The notes under the pieces: model-generated
Databases searched by the model: none
What the model was told of the DNA's origin: nothing
Seen by the model: the letters and a program-made list of their open reading frames with translations, nothing else
Assembly (NCBI GenBank): GCA_016184115.1
Contig: JACPDH010000080.1
Span: forward strand, 6,116 to 70,115
Source: Acidobacteriota bacterium
GTDB taxonomy: Bacteria > Acidobacteriota > Thermoanaerobaculia > Gp7-AA8
Direction of reading: 5' to 3'
DNA: 64,000 bases
In this document: one piece after another, positions 53,927 through 64,000 of the stretch
Numbering within the stretch: position 1 is the stretch's first letter
Layout: every line of letters starts with the position of its first letter
Translations under genes and position numbers: made by a program

Positions 53927-54640
53927 ATGCCGTCGCCCTATCGGACTCAGGTTGCCCTTGCCTCTCCGAAATCCGATAATTCAGTCGCGATGCCATCCCT
54001 TGCCGACCGGCGCAGGTTTGAGCACCTGACGCTTCCGAAGCCGCTCCCTGCGAGATTCGGCTCGGAGAAGGTCTTCATCCTCGACCTCTCCATCAATGGC
54101 GCTCGGGTCGCGCATCAGCACCCCCAACTGGCGACCTCGTCAGAGTTTCTTCGTTTCGAGTGGCAGGGCGCCGAGCTCGCGTTCGAGTCCGAGGTCCTGC
54201 GGACATCGGCAGATTCGACGAAAATCGGAAGCACGACCGTCTGGGAGTCGGGGCTCTTTTTCCTCGAAGCTGTCGGGGGCTCCGACAGGACGATCCGCGA
54301 GCTCCTCGCCGACCAGATCCTCCGCGTGCTCGATGAGCGGAAAGCGAATGCTCGCGGCATCCCGCCGATCGCCGCGACGTACGTCAAGACGGGTGGCAGG
54401 GAAGGCGGATATGTCATCTGGAGGCTCGCCGGAGGGCAGTGGCGCTCGACGGCGAGCGAGAAGGCAGACCAGCCAGCCGACGGCTTCACCGTTTCGGCGC
54501 GCGAGTCGAGCGACCAGGTGCAGATGTTGCGCGAAACTTACGAGAACTCCGACTTCGAGGGACGCAAGATGATCCGCAAGATGGCGGAGCTCGCAACCTC
54601 GACTCCGGAAGGAGTCGCAACGAGGAAGTTCCAACCTTAA
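53927..54640 (+). CDS. PilZ-domain protein (the start may be the ATG at 53990).
   Basis: DRRRFEH (RxxxR) and DLSINGARV (DxSxxG) motifs. Confidence 0.6.
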   Translation: MPSPYRTQVALASPKSDNSVAMPSLADRRRFEHLTLPKPLPARFGSEKVFILDLSINGARVAHQHPQLATSSEFLRFEWQGAELAFESEVLRTSADSTKIGSTTVWESGLFFLEAVGGSDRTIRELLADQILRVLDERKANARGIPPIAATYVKTGGREGGYVIWRLAGGQWRSTASEKADQPADGFTVSARESSDQVQMLRETYENSDFEGRKMIRKMAELATSTPEGVATRKFQP

Positions 54641-54780: not shown

Positions 54781-56031
54781 ATGACGCTACCGATGAGTCG
54801 ACCGGGATCTTCAGCGGATCGCGCGGATGCCATCGCTGGCGCGGCGAGCGGCTTCAAGTCGTTCGAGACCGCTCTCGAGCAGGCCGCCGACGGGATCGCC
54901 CTGTTCGCGCCCGACGCGTCGGGAATCCTCACGGTCAGCTTCGCGAACGCCGCGCTCTGCCGCCTCTTCTCGCGCGCTCCATCCGAGATCGTCGGCATCG
55001 CGGTCGACGAGCTTGGCATTCGCGAAGACGGCGCGAAGAACGACGCGGTCCGCGAACGGCTTCTCGCAGGACAGCGAATCGCCGGCTCGGGCTCCCTTCT
55101 GCGGGCCGATGGTGTCCGCAAAAGCGTCGACGTGAGCATCGTTCCGGTGCGTGGCGACGGCGGCGACGTCTCTCAATGGATCGCGATCTTCCATGACCTT
55201 CGGGAAGTCGACGCTTCGTCGAAAGATGCGGTCGCGGCCGAGCTGGCCGCGCGCGCGGAAGAGTTGCGCGAGGCGATGATCTGGGACCATCTCGTCAACT
55301 ACTACCAGCCGATCGTCGACCTGAAGACGGGGATCGTCACACACGCCGAAGTTCTCGTTCGCTGGAATCATCCGACGCGCGGATTGCTCGGCCCCGACAA
55401 GTTCCTTCCTCTCGCGGAAGCCACGGGACTGATTCGCGACGTCACGATGTGGTGTTTCGAAGATTCGTTCCGGCAGCACCGTGAGTGGCAGAAGGCAGGT
55501 TTGAACGTCGGCCTCGCGATGAACCTCTCCCCGTCGAACCTTCACGACACCGCGATTGCCGAAACGATCACCGAGTTGCTCGAGACATCAGGAGTCGATC
55601 CAGGAATGCTCCGCGTGGAGATCACGGAGAACGCGATTCTCGACGACCCGACGCACGTGCTCGCGCTTCTCTCCCTCTTGCAGACCTTCGGCGTGTCGCT
55701 CTCGCTCGACGACTTCGGCACCGGTTACTCGTCGCTCACGAACCTGCGCGAGGTGCCGTTTCAGGAGATCAAGATCGACAAGTCATTCGTCCTTAACATG
55801 ATGGAGGAGGAGGGCGACCGCGCCGTGGTGCGTGCCGTGATCGACCTCGCCCACAGCCTCGGCAGGCACGTCGTCGCCGAAGGGATCGAGGACGAGCAAA
55901 CGCTCAATCAGCTGCGCAGCTGGGGCTGTGACTACGCCCAGGGCTACTTCATCAGCCGCCCGATCCCACCGGCACAGTTCGAGGTGTGGGCGAGAAACAA
56001 CCTGGCGGGAAAAGCAGGTCAAAGGTCATAG
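54781..56031 (+). CDS. PAS-EAL domain protein (putative c-di-GMP phosphodiesterase).
   Basis: EAL signature motifs (…EVLVRW…, …EITEN…, …DDFGTGYSSL…, …KIDKSFV…, …EGIE…Q…). Confidence 0.8.
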   Translation: MTLPMSRPGSSADRADAIAGAASGFKSFETALEQAADGIALFAPDASGILTVSFANAALCRLFSRAPSEIVGIAVDELGIREDGAKNDAVRERLLAGQRIAGSGSLLRADGVRKSVDVSIVPVRGDGGDVSQWIAIFHDLREVDASSKDAVAAELAARAEELREAMIWDHLVNYYQPIVDLKTGIVTHAEVLVRWNHPTRGLLGPDKFLPLAEATGLIRDVTMWCFEDSFRQHREWQKAGLNVGLAMNLSPSNLHDTAIAETITELLETSGVDPGMLRVEITENAILDDPTHVLALLSLLQTFGVSLSLDDFGTGYSSLTNLREVPFQEIKIDKSFVLNMMEEEGDRAVVRAVIDLAHSLGRHVVAEGIEDEQTLNQLRSWGCDYAQGYFISRPIPPAQFEVWARNNLAGKAGQRS

Positions 56032-56246: not shown

Positions 56247-57137
56247 ATGTCGCTTCAGCTCCAGATTTCGGGCCTCTCGAAGACCTACGCGAACGGCGTA
56301 CAGGCGCTCAAGGACGTCTCGTTGACGATCCCAACAGGCATGTTCGGCTTACTCGGGCCGAACGGCGCGGGCAAATCGACGCTGATGCGGACGATCGCAA
56401 CCTTGCAGGAGCCCGATTCCGGCTCGATCACTCTCGGCAACATCGACGTCGTCCGCCAGAAAGACGACGTCCGCCGCATTCTTGGCTACCTCCCCCAGGA
56501 GTTCGGTGTCTACCCGAAGATGTCGGCCGAGGCGATGCTCAATCACTTCGCAGTGCTCAAAGGGATTCACGATGCGAAGGCGCGAAAGGAAGTCGTCGAG
56601 GCGCTCCTTCATCAAACGAACCTCTGGGAAGTGCGAAAGCTCAACCTCGGCGGCTATTCGGGTGGAATGCGTCAGCGCTTCGGTATTGCGCAGGCGCTGA
56701 TCGGTGACCCGAAACTCATCATCGTCGACGAGCCGACCGCAGGGCTCGATCCGGGCGAACGGAACCGCTTCCACAACCTCCTTGCTGAGATCGGCGAGAA
56801 CATCATCGTCATCCTGTCGACTCACATCGTCGAGGACGTGTCTGACCTCTGCAGCCAGATGGCGATCATCTCGCACGGCCGCGTACTGCTGACGGGCGAT
56901 CCGGCGAACACGATCGACGAGATGAAGGGGCGCATCTGGAAGAAGACGATCGCAAAGCCGGAGCTCACCTCGTGCCAGGAGCGCTACGCCGTCATCTCCA
57001 CGCGGCTCGTCGCAGGACGCACGGTAGTACACGTGTTGAGCGAGAGCGATCCGGGTGACGGATTCGAACAGGTCGACCCGGATCTCGAAGACGTCTACTT
57101 CTCGACGTTGAGCCGCGCAGGCGAGATCGCGGCCTGA
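56247..57137 (+). CDS. ABC transporter ATP-binding protein.
   Basis: Walker A GPNGAGKST. Signature LSGGMRQR. Walker B IIVDEPTAGLD. RBS aggagg. Confidence 0.85.
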   Translation: MSLQLQISGLSKTYANGVQALKDVSLTIPTGMFGLLGPNGAGKSTLMRTIATLQEPDSGSITLGNIDVVRQKDDVRRILGYLPQEFGVYPKMSAEAMLNHFAVLKGIHDAKARKEVVEALLHQTNLWEVRKLNLGGYSGGMRQRFGIAQALIGDPKLIIVDEPTAGLDPGERNRFHNLLAEIGENIIVILSTHIVEDVSDLCSQMAIISHGRVLLTGDPANTIDEMKGRIWKKTIAKPELTSCQERYAVISTRLVAGRTVVHVLSESDPGDGFEQVDPDLEDVYFSTLSRAGEIAA

Positions 57138-57160
57138 CGGCCGAGGGACGGGAGCTCACG

Positions 57161-60100
57161 ATGTTCTTCGAAATCACCCGCTTCGAGCTGAGATTCCAGC
57201 TCCGGCAGCCGATCGTCTGGATCTCGATGGCGATCTTCTGCATTCTCACGTTCTTCGCCGTCACGACCGACAACGTGACGATCGGTGGATCGATTGGCGC
57301 GGTGAACCGGAATGCCCCGTATGTGATCGTCCAGATCCTCTCGATCATGTCGATCATCGGCGTGTTTGTGACGACCGCCTTCGTCGCGAACGTCGTGAAC
57401 CGCGACTTCGAGCTCAACACGCACTCGCTCTTCTTCTCGACGCCGATTCTCCGGCGCGACTACCTCGGGGGGCGCTTCCTCGGCGCACTTCTCGTCGCAT
57501 TTCTGATCTTCGTTCCAGTCGCCGGATCGATCTGGCTTGGCAGCCTCATGCCCTGGCTCGAGCAGGAGCGCATTGGCCCGTTCATGGCGGCGCCCTACCT
57601 TTACTCGCTCCTGTTCATGGTCCTGCCGAACCTGTTCTTCATGTCGGCGATCTTTTTCTCGCTCGCGGCGCTGACGCGAAGCATGATGTACACCTACGTC
57701 GGCGTCGTCGCCTTCTTCGTCCTCTACGGCGTGTCGCAGTCGATGATGGCCGATCTCGACAACCAGACGATCGCCGCGCTCGCCGACCCGTTCGGGCTGG
57801 CCGCATTCGAGCTAACGACGAAGTACTGGACCGTGTTCGAGCGCAATGCGCTCGTCCCCGCGATCGGAGGACCGATTCTCGTCAATCGCATCGTCTGGAC
57901 GATCATCGGTGCGCTCGTCGTCGTGTCCACCATTCGCTCGTTCAAATTCACGGCGACGCTGGAAGGAAGGAAATCCAGGAAACGCAGAGCGAATGCAGGC
58001 TCGAACGAAATGGTCACACACGTCGGGACCGACGGCCTCCAGCACCTCGCAGCTCCGCGCTCGTTCGACGCCGCCGCGCAGTTCCGTCAGTACCTTCGTC
58101 AGGCTTCGATCGAGCTCTCGTCGACGCTCACGAGCGCCCCCTTCATCGTCCTCGTGCTGATCGGAATCCTAAACATCATCGGGAACAGCCTCGCGCTCAA
58201 TCAGCTTTTCGACACACCCATCTGGCCGGTCACCTCGGCGATGATTCAGGTGATCAGCGGATCGTTCTTCCTCTACGTCTTCATCATCCTCGTCTTCTTC
58301 GGCGGCGAGCTCGTCTGGAAGGAGCGACAGCTCAAACTCAATGAAGTCTACGATGCTCTGCCTGTCCCTAACTGGGTGATCTGGGCATCGAAAATTACCG
58401 CGCTCGCGGCGGCGATCGTTACCCTCCAGCTCGTCGCGGCGCTCACCTCGATCGGCTTCCAGATCGCGAACGGCTATTCGAACGTCGAGATTCGGACGTT
58501 TGCACTAGGCCTAACTCTAGACCAGGGCGTGATCTTCTTTCTCCTCGCGGCGACCCTCTCGTTCTTCGTCCCCTCCGCCGCATGGGGCTCGAGCACGTGC
58601 TCTACCGCTACGCGCAGGTGCCGCCGAACCCCTGGTCCGACATGAACGGCTACGGCCATTTCATGCAAGGCATGATCTCGGTCTACGCCTATTGGATCGC
58701 GGTCGCGGCGATCCTCCTGGTCGTCGTCCATCTCTTCTGGGTGAGAGGGACGGAGTCGGCGTTCGCGACACGCGCGACGCTCGCACTTCGCCGCCTCACG
58801 CGCGGCTCGATCGCCGCGCTCACCCTGGCACTCGCCGTCGCGGCCTCACTCGGCGGCTGGATCTTCTACAACACAAACGTCGTCAACAAGTACATCACCA
58901 CGAACGACTTCGAGCAGTCGCAGGCGGAGTTCGAGACGAAGTACAAGAAGTTCGAGGGGCTCGCGCAGCCGCGCATCGTCGACGTCAAGGCCGACGTCGA
59001 TCTCTTCCCCGCGGAACGCGACGCGAACATCCGCGGCAGCTACCTCCTGAAGAACAAGACCGCGGCGCCGATCGGCGAGCTCCACCTCTGGCTCAGCCCG
59101 CTCGTGAAGGGGCGAACGATCGTCGTCCCCGGAGCGAAGGTGCGCGAGAGCGACGCGAAGTTCGGCTACACGATCTACACCCTCGCGAAACCGATGCAGC
59201 CGGGCGAGACCATGACCCTGACGTTCGAACTCGAAATTCGCAACGACGGCTTCACCAACAACCGCGGCGTCACCAACTTCGTCGAGAACGGCACCTTCTT
59301 CAACAACTACGAGTGGTTCCCCTACGTCGGCTACCAACCGGGGAACGAACTCGTCGACACGAACAAGCGGCGCAAGTACGGCCTCGAACCGATCCAGCGC
59401 ATGCCGAAGCTCGGCGATCCCAAATGGCTCGGCACCAACTACCTCGGCACGCAATCCGACTGGCTGAACTTCGAGACGACCGTCTCGACGAGCGCCGATC
59501 AGATCGCCATCGCGCCCGGCTATCTCCAGCGCGAATGGACGAAGGATGGGCGCCGCTACTACCACTACAAGATGGACGCGCCGATCCTCGGTTTCTGGTC
59601 GTACCTCTCCGCGCGATACACGGTGAAGCGCGACCGCTGGAACGACGTCGCGATCGAGGTCTACTACCACGAGCCGCACGCCTTCAACGTCGATCGGATG
59701 ATCGAATCGGTCAAGAGATCGCTCGACTACTACACGACGAACTTCGGCCCCTACCAGCACAAGCAGGTCCGCATCATCGAATTTCCGGGCTACGAGCGCT
59801 TTGCTCAGGCGTTCCCTAACACGATTCCCTTCTCCGAGTCGATCGGATTCGTCGCGCGAATCGAAAAACCCGAGGACATCGACTACGTCTTCTACGTGAC
59901 GGCGCACGAAGTCGCGCACCAGTGGTGGGCACACCAGGTCATCGGCGCCAACATGCAAGGGGCGACGGTCCTCTCGGAGACCCTCTCCCAATACTCCGCT
60001 CTCATGGTCATGGAAAAGGAGTACGGCAAGCAGACGATGAAGCGCTTCCTGAAGTACGAGCTCGAGAGCTACCTTCGCGGACGAGGGAGCGAGCTCGTCG

Positions 60101-60693
60101 GCGAAACACCGCTCGAGCGCGTCGAGAATCAGGGCTACATCCACTACCGGAAGGGCTCGCTCGTCATGTACGCGCTGCGCGACTACATGGGCGAAGAAGC
60201 GCTGAACCGCGCGCTCGCCAGGTTCGTCGCCGACCACAAGTTCGCCGAGCCGCCATACCCTACTTCTCTCGACCTGCTCAGCTACATTCGCGCCGAAGCG
60301 TCGCCCGAGCTGCAGCCCGTAATCACTGACCTGTTCGAGTCGATCACGATCTACGAGAACAAGGCGACCGCCGCCTCGGCATCGAAGCGCGCCGACGGGA
60401 AATGGGTGGTATCGCTCGAGATCGCGGCGGGCAAGTACCACGCAACCGCCGCAGGAAAGGAAGAGCCGGTGAAGATCGGCGACCTCATCGACATCGGCAT
60501 CCTCGGCGACGACCCGAAAGACAAGACCCGCGGCGCTCCCATCCTCTATCTCGAGAAGAAGCGAATCGATCGACCCAAAATGAAGTTCGAAATCGTCGTC
60601 GATCGCGAGCCGTCGAAAGCCGGCATCGACCCGCTCAACAAGCTCATCGACCGAAACCCCGAAGACAATCTGAAGGCAGTGGAACGAAAGTAG
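57161..60693 (+). CDS. ABC-2 type permease fused to an M1-family (aminopeptidase N-like) zinc metallopeptidase. The reading frame is interrupted by a 1-nt frameshift near 58570-58590; the two ORFs in the track are 57161..58645 and 58582..60693.
   Basis: The first ORF has 8+ TM helices and ends in Arg-rich junk after …LSFFVPS. The second ORF starts with more TM helices and continues into an M1 domain with HEVAHQWW…E (HExxH-18-E). The two overlap by 64 nt in different frames. Confidence 0.6.
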
Positions 60694-61083
60694 AAACGCG
60701 AAACGCGGAACGGGAAACACGGAACGCCGAACGGGGAACGCGAAACGCGGAACGGGAAACGCGAAATGTGGAACGGAAAACGCGAAATGTGGAACGCGGG
60801 ATGCGAATGTCGAAACGCGTTACGCGACGAGAAACACAGAACGTTCAAGGCAACCCCAGCCGCACCTCAAACGCGGAGCTCATGAGAGCTAGCTCCTACC
60901 CGGTTCCGCGCCTCATGTAACGGTTTCGCATTTCGCGTTTCGCATTTCGCGTTTCGCATTTCGCGTTCCGCATTCCGCATTTCGCGTTCCGCATTTCGCA
61001 TTTCGCGTTTCGCATTCCGCATTTCGCATTTCGCGTTCCGCATTTCGCGTTCCGCATTTCGTGTTTCGCACTCCGCATTTCGA
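60694..61083. repeat. Large inverted pair of heptamer tandem arrays. (GAAACGC/GGAACGG/GAAATGT…) about x24 is at 60694-60860. (GCATTTC/GCGTTTC/GCGTTCC) about x25 is at 60905-61083. Together they span the whole convergent intergenic region.
   Basis: Direct reading. The ORF-track entries 60402..60920 and 60896..61129 are only translations of the repeats (TRNAERE… and MRNAKCG…). Confidence 0.85.
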
Positions 61084-61470
61084 TTACTTCTTCGGCGTGA
61101 TCTCCTTCTCCTCTCTCCACAACTTCCAACGATCGCGGAAGGTGTAAGGCGTGTACGCGGCCGGTGTGGAGAGAAGTGAGAAGGCGTCGATGGTCGGCAT
61201 CGGAGTCGCGTCGCTGTTGGCTGTTCCTGCGGCTGCAGCGAGAACGAACCCCACGGTGCCGAATCCAGGCACGTGGAGCAGGTAGGGCTCAGGAGCTTTG
61301 ATCTGCGACTCCTCGACGACGACCTCGTAGAGGATGTACATCATCGCCGGTTTCGAATAGTCGGGCTTGTCCTTGTCCTGAGCCTCAGCGGTTTTTGCCG
61401 GCTCGGCGGAGTGCATGGACAGTGCGAACAACGCGGACGCAAACGCGAACGCAGCAATCTTGATCCTCAT
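61084..61470 (-). CDS. Small secreted hypothetical protein.
   Basis: Signal peptide MRIKIAAFAFASALFALS. 128 aa. Confidence 0.45.
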   Translation of the reverse strand: MRIKIAAFAFASALFALSMHSAEPAKTAEAQDKDKPDYSKPAMMYILYEVVVEESQIKAPEPYLLHVPGFGTVGFVLAAAAGTANSDATPMPTIDAFSLLSTPAAYTPYTFRDRWKLWREEKEITPKK

Positions 61471-61600
61471 GTCTACCCTCCTTGGCGTCGGGCGGCGCGC
61501 AAACTGCCCGGTACGCCCCCTCCCATTCTCAAATATAGGACGAACGCGACACGCCGGATGTTGCAATCTTCATTCGGGCTGCCGGTAGAATCGGCGTCGG

Positions 61601-62422
61601 ATGCCAAGAATCGCGTTTCTCGAGCTCCTCGACCGCTATGACGCGGAGATTCTGGAACGACAGCGGCAGGCGGAGCTCGATCCGGTTCCGGAAGCGTTTC
61701 ACCAGCTTCGCGTTCATGTGAAGCGGGCTCGTGCGCTCCTCGAGCTCGTCGACAACGTCGCGCCGAAGTTTCGGCGAACGCGATCGATGCGAGTCTTTCG
61801 TGAGCCGTTCCGAGCCGCCGGTACGATTCGCGACCTCCATGTGCAGCTCGAGATCGCTACCAGCACGGCGTCGCTCTCGTCCGACATCTCGACCTACCTC
61901 GGTATGCTCGAGGCGCGCGAGCATAACGCCGTCACCGCCTGGCTGGCGTCGGGGCCGCGAGTCTCACCTGACCAACTCGCCGCGGTCCGCCGCGAAGTCG
62001 AAGACGCGCTCGCGCGTCGCGGCTGGGTCGAGCTTGCCTCTCGCAGCTGGATGCACTTCATCGCGCGGCTTCGCGACACCCTCGCGTTCGACGTTCACGC
62101 TGCCGACCTTCATGATCTGCGCAAGCGCGTCAAGGACTGCTCGAATCTGACCTGGATCCTCGCAGAAGTCGCGCCGGAGCTGATCATCGCGAAACCGCTG
62201 ACCAGGGCACTCGACAAGCTCCAGAAACAGCTCGGAGACTGGCACGACCTCGACGTCGCCGTTGCCACGTCGGACGAGCTCCCGACGGAAGAACCAGGAT
62301 GCAGCTCCCCCGCAGGCTGGACTGAATTTCGCGCATCGATCGCCGCGAAGCGCGAACAGCTTCGCGAAAAAGTGCTGCGCAATTGGCGGGCGCTCGCGAA
62401 CGTCACGCCGCCGGGAGTCTAG
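61601..62422 (+). CDS. CHAD-domain protein.
   Basis: Repeated His/Arg-containing helices (FHQLRVHVKRAR, LHDLRKRVKD, LGDWHDLDV) typical of CHAD. Confidence 0.65.
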   Translation: MPRIAFLELLDRYDAEILERQRQAELDPVPEAFHQLRVHVKRARALLELVDNVAPKFRRTRSMRVFREPFRAAGTIRDLHVQLEIATSTASLSSDISTYLGMLEAREHNAVTAWLASGPRVSPDQLAAVRREVEDALARRGWVELASRSWMHFIARLRDTLAFDVHAADLHDLRKRVKDCSNLTWILAEVAPELIIAKPLTRALDKLQKQLGDWHDLDVAVATSDELPTEEPGCSSPAGWTEFRASIAAKREQLREKVLRNWRALANVTPPGV

Positions 62423-62542: not shown

Positions 62543-63898
62543 TCAGAACTTCATGACGACCGAGATCGAAGCGACGTCGGAGAGTGACGACGTGTCGTAC
62601 GCCGCGTCGACCTGCCAGCGCGGCCACGAAAGCCCGACGCCGAGCGTGTAGTGACTTACGTCGTCCGTCTCCGGAAAGAGGATCTCGGCTGACATCGCGT
62701 CGTGTCCGACGAGAGGGCCGCGATAGGCGATCGCGTGCGCCGGATCGGTCCACCAACCAGCTCGAATCGCAAAGGGGACCCGTGTCTGGATGTAGTACTC
62801 CACTCCCGCGTGAATCTCCGTCGCGTCGTCGGCCTCGTAGCCACTCACACCCTCCACCTTGGTGAGTTGATCGCCGTCGTACACGACTTCGATGACCGAT
62901 AGAAAATCATTCGTCGCGACCGAATAGTCGATCCTCGCAACATCGACCCCGAGGAGGAGGTTAGGCGTCGGATGCCATGCAACACCCACGCTCGCAGCGT
63001 CGGGTATCTCGAACCTCGTCGTTCCGATCAGGTCGAGCTGCGCCGGCGAGTTTGCCGAGATATTTCTCGAGAAGACAGGGGCGGGGAACTCAGGCCCCTT
63101 CTTGTAGACCGCGCCGAGGCTCCACGCGGAGCTCGGCTGCCACTTCACCCCGGCAACCCACGTGATGTCGTCATCGGTCTCGTCGCCGTAGAGCCGTGCA
63201 CCGTTCTGTTGGGTGATGAGAAACGTCGGCTGCCCAGGGAGATCGGTGTCGATGCGATGGCTCGACGCCACCTCACTGAAACTGCTGTAACGGATCGCCA
63301 TGCCGACGGAAACATTCCCGAAATCGTGCGCCGCGGCGAGCCCGAAGCTTTCGAGGCTGATGTCGACACTCGACGCGTACGGATAGATCTGACCCTCCAC
63401 GCAGTCGCCCCTCGTCTGGCAGGCCGCGAACGTCAACGGCGCTCCGTCGGGCCCCACGAAGTATGTGGGCGTGGGGTAGCGTCCGATCGTGTCGATCGTG
63501 TTCTGCAGGTCGAGCGACGAGTGATAGAACAGCGCGAATGACGAACGTTCGAGCGGGTAGACGACGCTGACGAACGAGACGTCGACGTCCGTCGCCGCAA
63601 AATCGGTCCTCGGCAGATCGGGGTAATAGCCACCCGTCGCGAAGAGCTGCGACATCGTCGTCTTTCGCAGTTCCAGTGAGACCTCAGGCTCTCGCAACAC
63701 GGTTAGGCCGGCGGGGTTCGATTCGGCGGCTGAAGCATCGTCCGCGATCGCGACGAACGCGCCGCCCATCCCGAGAGCGCGGGCGCCCGGATTCGCAAAG
63801 TCGAATTGGAGCCCAGAAAGCGCCTCGATATCGGTGTTCTGCGCGACGAGCGGAACCGCAAACGCCAGCGCGATCGCGGCCACGGAGACGTTCCTCAT
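62543..63898 (-). CDS. FadL/TodX/OmpP1-family outer-membrane transport protein.
   Basis: Signal peptide. The GMGGAF motif near the N-terminus. Beta-barrel pattern with a C-terminal Phe (…VVMKF). Confidence 0.65.
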   Translation of the reverse strand: MRNVSVAAIALAFAVPLVAQNTDIEALSGLQFDFANPGARALGMGGAFVAIADDASAAESNPAGLTVLREPEVSLELRKTTMSQLFATGGYYPDLPRTDFAATDVDVSFVSVVYPLERSSFALFYHSSLDLQNTIDTIGRYPTPTYFVGPDGAPLTFAACQTRGDCVEGQIYPYASSVDISLESFGLAAAHDFGNVSVGMAIRYSSFSEVASSHRIDTDLPGQPTFLITQQNGARLYGDETDDDITWVAGVKWQPSSAWSLGAVYKKGPEFPAPVFSRNISANSPAQLDLIGTTRFEIPDAASVGVAWHPTPNLLLGVDVARIDYSVATNDFLSVIEVVYDGDQLTKVEGVSGYEADDATEIHAGVEYYIQTRVPFAIRAGWWTDPAHAIAYRGPLVGHDAMSAEILFPETDDVSHYTLGVGLSWPRWQVDAAYDTSSLSDVASISVVMKF

Positions 63899-64000
63899 GG
63901 CGGACCTCCAGGGTGCATCGTCCACATCGGTGCCATGCGGCGCAGTGACCTCCGCACGGCCCGGCCTGTCCGTTCGTCACCCGTTGGCGTAACGCGACGC

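What the first reader, a model, noticed from the sequence alone, without database searches (positions are those of the whole stretch)
56247..60693. ABC ATPase followed by an ABC-2 permease fused to an M1 aminopeptidase, split by a frameshift
A single transcription unit encodes an ABC ATP-binding protein and then a roughly 1170-aa protein. That protein has about 10 N-terminal TM helices (ABC-2 permease-like) joined to a complete M1 zinc peptidase (HEVAHQWW…E). The fusion places an aminopeptidase N-type catalytic domain on a transporter, which is an unusual coupling of export or import with peptide trimming. The frame breaks once near 58570-58590. The 57161 frame turns into Arg-rich nonsense after …SFFVPS, while the 58582 frame continues with TM helices. 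This is a sequencing or assembly error, a recent pseudogenisation, or a programmed frameshift.
Basis: partly seen in the sequence, partly recalled or inferred. Interest (0 to 1): 0.6.

Follow-up and report, generated by a model that had tools for sequence, protein, structure and literature searches.

The report
Broken ABC permease–M1 peptidase fusion gene
This is a damaged copy of a common, already annotated but unstudied bacterial two-gene ABC transporter whose membrane subunit carries a zinc peptidase on its outer face; the "frameshift" is a 67-base deletion that removes a membrane helix, not a programmed recoding event.

Summary
An ABC ATPase gene (56247-57137) is followed 23 nt later by a double ABC-2 permease ORF (57161-58645). 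An overlapping ORF in another frame (58582-60693) carries two more TM helices and a Peptidase_M1 domain.

The fusion is real but not rare. There are more than 1,600 homologues, 1,737 clusters at 50% identity, and at least 595 species genomes across seven or more phyla. All are single ORFs of about 1,190-1,230 aa with the ATPase gene directly upstream. NCBI already names them "ABC transporter permease/M1 family aminopeptidase". I found no paper on them.

The frame break is not a slip. Compared with two syntenic relatives (about 85% nt identity), the window lacks 67 nt at 58570/58571. Those bases encode the end of TM10 and all of TM11. Next to the deletion lies an unusually divergent 110-nt stretch. 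There is no slippery heptamer, and no relative is split. dN/dS in both halves matches that of the intact relatives, so the lesion is either very recent or an assembly fault. Only reads can decide.

Inferred biology of the intact family: a 13-TM, NosY/PmtD-like type V exporter with a periplasmic M1 metallopeptidase that has no domain IV. The catalytic residues are kept, but the GXMEN glutamate is replaced.

The parts
56247..57137 (+). ABC transporter ATP-binding subunit (296 aa), first gene of the pair
   Evidence: Pfam ABC_tran scores 104.9 bits. Walker A is at 56355-56378, signature YSGGMRQR at 56655-56678, Walker B at 56715-56735 and the H-loop at 56817-56825. The best NCBIfam matches are DrrA and GldA, both below their cut-offs. 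An AGGAGG Shine-Dalgarno lies upstream. dN/dS against relatives is 0.06.
57161..58570 (+). Homologous part of the fused permease: first 6-TM ABC-2 half, K/R-rich cytoplasmic linker, then TM7-TM10 of the second half
   Evidence: tblastn places P0001 residues 1-467 on 57161-58567 at 84% identity. Pfam gives PF12679 and PF12730. Hydropathy and K+R counts give the TM layout. An AF2 model of this piece has pLDDT 75.5. Its best Foldseek matches are NosY (TMt 0.64-0.74), PmtCD and Rv1217c.
58457..58570 (+). Anomalously divergent stretch directly upstream of the deletion (TM9-TM10 loop and TM10)
   Evidence: Nucleotide identity to L001/L003 is 43-58% here, against 85% gene-wide; L001 vs L003 are 78-90% identical here. 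Amino-acid identity is about 50%, against 84-92% in the flanks. dN is 0.43 against 0.08 elsewhere. Three of the five CTA codons of the three genes lie here, as do two CTAG sites 12 nt apart, in a window with 17 CTAG where 214 are expected. The stretch still scores like an ordinary family member against a family sub-profile: 36.8 bits, family median 38.5.
58570..58571 (+). Deletion junction: 67 nt present in both close relatives are absent here; the reading frame changes
   Evidence: MAFFT alignment of the window with L001 and L003. The missing bases encode about FQVLGSNKYLGFLLMTIFFISLIA(L), which is the end of TM10, the cytoplasmic turn and TM11. The missing sequence is not found elsewhere in the window.
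58571..58645 (+). Out-of-frame tail of the first ORF (PSAAWGSSTCSTATRRCRRTPGPT, then stop)
   Evidence: Three-frame translation. No homology to family members after residue 467/470.
58573..60693 (+). Downstream part of the ancestral gene in the other frame (listed ORF 58582-60693): periplasmic loop, TM12, cytoplasmic R-rich loop, TM13 and the M1 module
   Evidence: tblastn places P0001 residues 489-1197 on 58564-60690 at 86% identity. The product is identical to public protein P0009, 'hypothetical protein HYU52_12870 [Acidobacteria bacterium]'. There is no Shine-Dalgarno before the ATG at 58582; the sequence there is cccctccgccgcATG.
58630..58659 (+). Conserved periplasmic loop motif P(W/Y)SDMNGYGH between TM11 and TM12
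   Evidence: S513, N516 and G519 are invariant, and Y512, D514, M515, G517 and H520 nearly invariant, in alignment A1. An exact '.YSDMNG.G.' match was found in 154 of 196 members. Coordinates.
58675..58869 (+). TM12 (58675-58743), R-rich cytoplasmic loop (58744-58809) and TM13 (58810-58869), which carries the chain to the outside
   Evidence: Hydropathy. The loop holds 5-8 K+R residues in all 30 aligned members. Summed inside loops average 32.4 K+R and outside loops 7.9. Coordinates.
58870..60690 (+). Extracytoplasmic M1-type zinc metallopeptidase module: N-terminal beta domain, thermolysin-like catalytic domain and a terminal beta-sandwich, with no helical domain IV
59800..59823 (+). FAQAFPNT: the position of the GXMEN exopeptidase motif, here without the glutamate
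   Evidence: HMMER alignment to ERAP2 puts QAFPN opposite GAMEN. P906 and N907 are invariant in A1. The listed variants among 196 members are (A/S)F(P/A)(N/G), none with Glu.
59905..59919 (+). HEVAH zinc-binding and catalytic motif. The third zinc ligand Glu is at 59977-59979 (LSETL) and the catalytic Tyr at 60145-60147 (IHYRKG)
   Evidence: Aligned with HELAH, NEG and YNKG of ERAP2. H936, E937, H940, E960 and Y1016 are invariant in A1. They are kept across 196 members. Coordinates.

Best explanation
The locus is a disrupted copy of a widespread, self-contained two-gene ABC system.

Inferred biology of intact relatives:
- Gene 1 is the ATPase. It presumably acts as a dimer.
- Gene 2 is one polypeptide of about 1,200 aa. 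It supplies both six-helix ABC-2 (type V, NosY/PmtD-like) permease halves and a 13th helix.
- That 13th helix carries an M1-type zinc metallopeptidase to the outer (periplasmic) face of the inner membrane.
- The peptidase keeps its zinc ligands, general base and transition-state tyrosine. It has lost the GXMEN glutamate that holds a substrate's free N-terminus, and it has no capping domain IV.
- My inference is that it acts as a tethered, open-cleft peptidase. The transporter below it either feeds it substrates extracted from the membrane or cytoplasm (export-coupled cleavage) or gates it mechanically.

State of the window copy:
- The gene is broken by loss of 67 nt at 58570/58571. This removes TM11 and shifts the frame.
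- Read as written, it gives a truncated 10-helix permease. It also leaves a downstream ORF with no ribosome-binding site.
- I take the lesion to be a real and very recent deletion in the sampled population. It sits at the edge of the least-constrained stretch of the gene.

Shown: the identity of the parts, the orthology, the size and position of the deletion, the absence of recoding signals, and conservation of the catalytic residues.
Inferred: the topology, the ATP-peptidase coupling, and that the lesion is real.
For: Architecture and family:
- Pfam hits.
- More than 1,600 homologues of about 1,185-1,230 aa, several named 'ABC transporter permease/M1 family aminopeptidase'.
- 1,737 clusters at 50% identity with E <= 1e-30.
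- At least 595 species genomes.
- 81 of 83 loci are single-frame. The ATPase lies immediately upstream in 71 of 76 assessable loci and within 326 nt in the rest.
- No conserved third gene.

Lesion:
- A 67-nt gap against two syntenic relatives.
- No slippery heptamer.
- dN/dS is 0.13-0.16 in both halves, the same as between the intact relatives at 0.15-0.17.
- The same stretch is also the least constrained between the two intact relatives (dN/dS 0.46). Synonymous divergence of the patch (0.93-1.07 over 37 codons) is not clearly above the flanks (0.52-0.68).

Topology:
- 13 hydrophobic segments.
- K+R counts are 32.4 inside against 7.9 outside, in all 30 sequences.

Folds:

Catalytic motifs.
Against: - No reads are available, so a local assembly fault cannot be separated from a real deletion.
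- The stretch next to the deletion has odd codon usage (three CTA codons and two CTAG sites in a CTAG-depleted genome). A plain deletion does not explain this.
- No independent assembly of the same population was found.
- The functional model has no experimental support. No paper on the family was found. The topology rests on hydropathy and the positive-inside rule only. The models gave no inter-domain contact information.
Confidence: 0.5

Rival explanations
1. The gene identity is the same, but the break is a local assembly or scaffolding fault in this short-read MAG. The organism's gene would then be intact. The 110-nt odd stretch plus the 67-nt loss would be a badly reconstructed region, for example reads of a co-occurring homologue or a gap fill.
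For: - Both halves show purifying selection indistinguishable from the intact relatives.
- The adjacent stretch is compositionally foreign: three CTA codons, two CTAG sites, and 55% GC against 61-63%.
- That stretch scores like a distant family member rather than a close one.
- The N-terminal ORF's peptide words are absent from the protein collection, so the record's annotators did not call it as a protein.
Against: - A de Bruijn assembler needs shared k-mers to hop between sequences that are only about 50% identical, and none are evident at the left edge.
- No donor sequence was found among 83 loci, JGI contigs or 5.8 billion proteins.
- The stretch keeps the frame and most family-conserved residues.
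Confidence: 0.42
2. The split is functional. The cell makes a 10-helix permease and a separate two-helix, membrane-anchored M1 peptidase from the ATG at 58582, and the two assemble non-covalently.
For: - An in-frame ATG lies exactly at the conserved RR(I/L)GLEH position.
- Both ORFs are otherwise intact.
Against: - There is no Shine-Dalgarno before 58582.
- TM11 is missing from both products, so the second ABC-2 half is incomplete.
- None of 83 loci is split there.
- Shorter database entries start at scattered positions, as contig-end fragments do.
Confidence: 0.05
3. Programmed -1 ribosomal frameshifting joins the two ORFs into one protein.
For: The two ORFs overlap by 64 nt in frames that a -1 shift would connect.
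Against: - There is no X XXY YYZ heptamer between 58500 and 58645.
- A shifted product would still lack 21-25 conserved residues, including TM11.
- All relatives encode the protein in one frame.
Confidence: 0.01

Closest known systems
Database family annotated by NCBI as 'ABC transporter permease/M1 family aminopeptidase' (e.g. P0002; also 'M1 family aminopeptidase', P0001)
   Same: 83-84% amino-acid identity over the whole length, the same domain order, the same upstream ATPase gene, and the same neighbours in the two closest relatives: PAS-EAL, small ORF and CHAD in both, FadL/TodX-like porin in L001/L002 only.
   Different: The window copy lacks 67 nt and is split into two ORFs. It also has a uniquely divergent stretch of about 38 aa before the break.
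NosFY / NosDFY (nitrous oxide reductase maturation ABC complex; PDB 7o0y, 7o0z, 7znq)
   Different: NosY is a separate six-helix subunit that forms a homodimer. Its partner NosD is a separate protein and not a peptidase. Here the two halves and the periplasmic enzyme are one chain, and no nosD/nosL-like gene is nearby.
PmtCD (phenol-soluble modulin peptide exporter) and Rv1217c-Rv1218c (mycobacterial efflux pump with a fused double permease)
   Different: Neither carries a peptidase or any large extracytoplasmic enzyme domain.
Peptidase family M1 (aminopeptidase N, ERAP1/2, IRAP, LTA4H; two-domain M1 of Deinococcus radiodurans, 6a8z)
   Different: The GXMEN motif reads (A/S)F(P/A)N, with no glutamate, in all members examined. 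There is a one-residue insertion between HEXXH and the Glu, giving X19 instead of X18. The module is tethered to a transporter through a TM helix. Sequence similarity to solved M1 enzymes is low (E about 1e-7, 11-17% identity).
Peptidase-containing ABC transporters (PCATs, C39 peptidase domain) - comparison from my own knowledge
   Same: A peptidase is covalently joined to an ABC exporter, so cleavage and transport of one substrate can be coupled.
   Different: PCATs have a cytoplasmic N-terminal cysteine peptidase on a type IV exporter with a fused NBD. Here the peptidase is a C-terminal, extracytoplasmic zinc enzyme on a type V permease with a separate NBD. No C39 domain was detected.

Membership tests
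ABC transporter ATP-binding subunit (PF00005) | Walker A, Q-loop, ABC signature, Walker B, H-loop | tested here: met
   PF00005 scores 104.9 bits against a cut-off of 25. GPNGAGKS, LPQE, YSGGMRQR, LIIVDEP and STH are all present.
ABC-2 / type V permease | Profile match above the curated threshold | tested here: met
   PF12679 scores 36.4 bits (cut-off 27.2) for the first half. PF12730 scores 24.8 bits (cut-off 27), just below threshold, for the second half.
ABC-2 / type V permease | Six TM helices per half with the N-terminus inside; fold like solved ABC-2 permeases | tested here: met
'ABC transporter permease/M1 family aminopeptidase' fusion family | One uninterrupted ORF of about 1,200 aa containing both modules | tested here: not met
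   The window has two ORFs in different frames, with 67 nt missing. It is orthologous to the family by 84-86% identity and by synteny. It is therefore a disrupted member.
'ABC transporter permease/M1 family aminopeptidase' fusion family | ABC ATPase gene immediately upstream on the same strand | tested here: met
   The gap in the window is 23 nt. The same arrangement holds in 71 of 76 assessable loci.
Peptidase family M1 | HEXXH plus a downstream Glu as zinc ligands, and a catalytic Tyr | tested here: met
   HEVAH, LSETL and IHYRKG align to ERAP2. They are invariant in A1 and kept in 196 members. The spacing is X19, not X18.
Peptidase family M1 | GXMEN exopeptidase motif (the Glu binds the substrate's alpha-amino group) | tested here: not met
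   QAFPN aligns with GAMEN. The family-wide form is (A/S)F(P/A)N. The fold and catalytic site are M1, so aminopeptidase specificity should not be assumed.
Peptidase family M1 | M1 fold (N-terminal beta domain plus thermolysin-like domain) | tested here: met
Peptidase family M1 | Peptidase activity | not testable with these tools
Programmed -1 ribosomal frameshift | Slippery heptamer X XXY YYZ at the frame junction | tested here: not met
   None is present between 58500 and 58645 in the upstream frame.
Programmed -1 ribosomal frameshift | The shift is conserved in relatives and the shifted product is colinear with the family | tested here: not met
   Relatives are single-frame. The shifted product would lack 21-25 conserved residues.
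NosDFY-type maturation system | nosD/nosL/nosZ-type partner genes next to the ABC genes | tested here: not met
   No gene family recurs in more than 6 of about 80 neighbourhoods. The window's neighbours are PAS-EAL, CHAD and a FadL-like porin.
Peptidase-containing ABC transporter (PCAT) | N-terminal C39 cysteine peptidase domain on a type IV exporter | tested here: not met
   There is no C39 hit in Pfam. The peptidase is a C-terminal M1, and the permease has the ABC-2 fold.
Type VII mechanotransducing ABC (MacB/FtsX/LolC) | Four-helix FtsX-type permease with the periplasmic domain between TM1 and TM2 | tested here: not met
   There are 13 helices and the extracytoplasmic module is C-terminal. 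No FtsX/MacB chain appears among the listed structural matches.

The most novel reading that the evidence does not exclude
The intact family could be an undescribed kind of ABC machine. In this reading, a NosY/PmtD-like type V exporter is covalently coupled to an uncapped periplasmic M1 metallopeptidase that has lost its N-terminus anchor. Cytoplasmic ATP hydrolysis would then drive or gate proteolysis outside the cytoplasm, for example by extracting a membrane-embedded or exported peptide and cleaving it on exit. The window copy would be a freshly inactivated example.
Probability: 0.35. Interest if true: 0.65.

Novelty: new member of a known kind. Interest (0 to 1): 0.3.

Why it matters
For this window it matters little. 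The finding reduces to a damaged, or mis-assembled, copy of a gene that public annotation already names. It should be flagged as a pseudogene or assembly problem, not as recoding.

The family behind it is more interesting. It is a two-gene module present in hundreds of species. These include culturable Stenotrophomonas maltophilia, Lysobacter, Xanthomonas, Massilia and Adhaeribacter. I found no published study of it. Its design places a catalytically intact but atypical M1 peptidase on the periplasmic side of an ABC-2 exporter. That suggests ATP-coupled extracytoplasmic proteolysis, which could be tested directly in those organisms.

Tried and rejected
- Programmed frameshift: rejected. There is no slippery site, 67 nt are missing, and relatives are single-frame.
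- Single-base sequencing error: rejected for the same reason.
- Missing 67 nt displaced elsewhere in the window, or a paralogue in the window acting as a gene-conversion donor: blastn and tblastn found neither.
- Donor for the divergent stretch: blastn against 83 loci gave only chance matches. An exact 24-mer scan of JGI metagenome contigs gave 0 hits. A scan with a flanking 32-mer, meant to find closer strains, also gave 0 hits, even though that 32-mer is present in L001. A protein search with the 41-aa stretch found no candidate.
- Look-up of the contig encoding P0009: not on record.
- Natural split variants: shorter database proteins start at scattered positions and look like fragments.
- Conserved accessory genes (precursor peptide, outer-membrane partner, regulator): none found.
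- Promoter and terminator scan: nothing above shuffled expectation.
- Literature: five searches found nothing relevant.
- NCBIfam: no family model matches the permease part, and only a sub-threshold PepN match covers the M1 part.
- Other CTAG clusters or GC dips in the window: none found that would point to systematic local errors.


Full report
**1. What is in the sequence**

On the + strand, three ORFs make up the finding:
- **ATPase.** An ATG at 56247 follows an AGGAGG Shine-Dalgarno and opens a 296-aa ORF ending at 57137.
  - It is a standard ABC ATPase: PF00005 scores 104.9 bits, and Walker A, Q-loop, signature YSGGMRQR, Walker B and H-loop are all present.
  - Its nearest NCBIfam models are DrrA and GldA, both below their cut-offs.
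- **First permease ORF.** Twenty-three bases later, after a GGGAG Shine-Dalgarno, ORF 57161-58645 (494 aa) matches ABC2_membrane_2 in its first half and ABC2_membrane_4 in its second.
- **Second ORF.** ORF 58582-60693 (703 aa) lies in a different frame, overlaps the first by 64 nt, and contains Peptidase_M1.

**2. The fusion is genuine, ancient and common**

I joined the two ORFs into one query.
- It found more than 1,600 proteins at E <= 1e-10. The 120 best are nearly all 1,185-1,230 aa and cover 99-100% of the query.
- Several are named by NCBI "ABC transporter permease/M1 family aminopeptidase" or "M1 family aminopeptidase".
- One hit, P0009, is the window's own 703-aa ORF. It was deposited as a hypothetical protein of an Acidobacteria MAG on a 94-kb contig.

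An exhaustive HMMER search with the 703-aa ORF found 1,737 clusters at 50% identity with E <= 1e-30. Almost all place the query at about residues 490-1200 of a protein of about 1,200 aa.

They include:
- Acidobacteriota, Myxococcota, Gemmatimonadota, Bacteroidota and Bdellovibrionota;
- Alpha-, Beta- and Gammaproteobacteria;
- cultured Stenotrophomonas maltophilia, Lysobacter, Xanthomonas, Luteimonas, Massilia, Janthinobacterium and Adhaeribacter.

In 81 of 83 fetched loci a single HSP of at least 1,100 aa lies in one frame; the other two run off contig ends. The ATPase gene ends less than 200 nt upstream in 71 of 76 assessable loci and within 326 nt in the rest. No other gene family recurs in more than 6 of these neighbourhoods. 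The system is therefore a self-contained two-gene module.

Five full-text searches found no paper on it.

**3. What the frame break is**

The two closest relatives, P0001 and P0002, are 84% and 83% identical at the protein level.
- Both sit in a similar neighbourhood: ATPase, fusion gene, small ORF on the minus strand, and CHAD.
- PAS-EAL is seen upstream in L001 only, because L003 holds too little upstream sequence.
- A FadL/TodX-like porin follows in L001/L002.

tblastn places P0001 residues 1-467 on 57161-58567 and residues 489-1197 on 58564-60690. Nucleotide alignment shows one 67-nt gap in the window at 58570/58571.

The missing bases encode about FQVLGSNKYLGFLLMTIFFISLIAL in the relatives. 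That is the end of TM10, the short cytoplasmic turn and the whole of TM11.

The evidence against recoding or a functional split is as follows:
- The sequence at the junction has no X XXY YYZ heptamer.
- The ATG at 58582 has no Shine-Dalgarno; the sequence there is cccctccgccgcATG.
- The missing segment is nowhere else in the window, and the window has no paralogue.
- Shorter family entries in the databases begin at scattered positions, as contig-end fragments do, so there is no natural split at this point.

Programmed frameshifting and a one-base error are therefore excluded.

**4. An oddity next to the deletion**

The 110 nt just upstream (58457-58570) are far more divergent than the rest of the gene:

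| Measure | Stretch 58457-58570 | Rest of the gene / comparison |
|---|---|---|
| nt identity, window vs relatives | 43-58% | 85% gene-wide |
| nt identity, L001 vs L003, same stretch | 78-90% | – |
| aa identity | about 50% | 84-92% in equal-length flanks |
| dN | 0.43 | 0.08 |

The stretch also has unusual composition. It holds three of the five CTA codons of all three genes. It also holds two CTAG sites 12 nt apart, in a window with 17 CTAG where base composition predicts 214.

It is nevertheless not junk. Against a family sub-profile it scores 36.8 bits, against a family median of 38.5, whereas the neighbouring control segment scores in the top 2%. It keeps Q434, G438, E443 and G450 but changes the otherwise invariant Y446 to F.

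Two things temper the anomaly:
- Synonymous divergence is 0.93-1.07, against 0.52-0.68 in the flanks. Over only 37 codons that is not clearly higher.
- The same stretch is the least constrained between the two intact relatives (dN/dS 0.46 against about 0.15).

No donor sequence was found anywhere. I cannot fully explain this stretch.

**5. Real lesion or artefact**

Outside the odd stretch, dN/dS against the relatives is:
- 0.06 for the ATPase;
- 0.13 for the permease part;
- 0.13-0.16 for the M1 part.

The two intact relatives give 0.10-0.17 between themselves. There are no other stops or frame changes. The break is therefore either very recent or not real.

No independent assembly of this population was found. 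I put a real recent deletion at about 0.5 and a local assembly fault at about 0.4. Only the reads can decide.

**6. How the intact protein is probably built and works (inference)**

*Topology.*
- Hydropathy on P0001 gives 13 TM segments: six, then a 69-residue K/R-rich linker, six more, a loop with 6 K/R, and a 13th helix.
- Across 30 aligned members, loops assigned to the inside carry 32.4 K+R on average and those outside carry 7.9. Inside exceeds outside in every sequence.
- This puts the N-terminus in the cytoplasm and the C-terminal 600 residues outside, in the periplasm.

*Membrane domain.*
- AF2 models have pLDDT 78.5 / pTM 0.73 for the full length and pLDDT 75.5 for the membrane part.
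- This is the type V/ABC-2 exporter fold.

*Peptidase module.*
- It ends in a beta-sandwich, with no helical domain IV.
- HEXXH, the third-ligand Glu and the catalytic Tyr are invariant. A working metallopeptidase is therefore likely.
- GXMEN reads (A/S)F(P/A)N with no glutamate in all the variants seen. Classical aminopeptidase specificity should not be assumed.

*Conserved loop.* A strongly conserved periplasmic loop, P(Y/W)SDMNG(Y/F/W)GH, lies between TM11 and TM12. It is a candidate contact between the permease and the peptidase.

*Working model.* By analogy with NosDFY (a periplasmic partner on a NosY dimer) and PmtCD (peptide export), I propose that two ATPase copies drive the permease. 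This analogy draws on my own knowledge as well as the fold matches. The permease would either pass a peptide-like substrate to the tethered open-cleft peptidase or gate it mechanically. None of this has been tested.

**7. Verdict**

The window holds a disrupted member of a known, annotated and very widespread family, not a recoding event. The specific finding is ordinary: a pseudogene or an assembly flaw. The family itself is uncharacterised and moderately interesting. Interest 0.3; novelty: new member of a known kind.

Noticed in passing
window 60693-60827 and 60923-61082: Two arrays of a 7-nt unit lie in inverted orientation about 100 nt apart. GAAACGC repeats start at the stop codon of the M1 ORF, and the complementary (G/A)TTTCGC repeats follow (TRF periods 14 and 21; 5-11 copies). 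They fill the gap before the minus-strand ORF 61084-61566. The corresponding intergenic regions of the two close relatives lack them: 0 GAAACGC, and 2 and 0 GCGTTTC.
   Followed up: partly
window, whole 64 kb: The tetranucleotide CTAG is strongly avoided: 17 occurrences where base composition predicts about 214. Two of the 17 lie 12 nt apart at 58505 and 58517, inside the divergent stretch next to the deletion.
   Followed up: partly
window 58630-58659 (P0001 residues 511-520): A nearly invariant motif P(Y/W)SDMNG(Y/F/W)GH sits in the predicted periplasmic loop between TM11 and TM12 of the whole family, across phyla. Its role is unknown. It may be a contact with the peptidase module.
   Followed up: partly
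window 54781-56031, 61601-62422, 62543-63925: The neighbours are a PAS-EAL protein (EAL 254 bits), a CHAD-domain protein and a FadL/TodX-type outer-membrane channel. The close relatives share this order: CHAD in both, PAS-EAL and the porin in L001/L002. It is not kept across the wider family.
   Followed up: yes
window 53927-54640: A 237-aa ORF upstream of the EAL gene has no Pfam hit. By eye it contains RRRFEH...DLSINGARV, which resembles the RxxxR / DxSxxG signature of PilZ c-di-GMP receptors. This is unverified. A similarly placed 216-aa ORF with no Pfam hit exists in L001.
   Followed up: no
L025, L023, L036 (genome-contig loci): Intact orthologues of the fusion gene exist in culturable, genetically tractable bacteria: Stenotrophomonas maltophilia FR015, Lysobacter brunescens and Xanthomonas chitinilytica. 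The family's function could be tested there directly.
   Followed up: no
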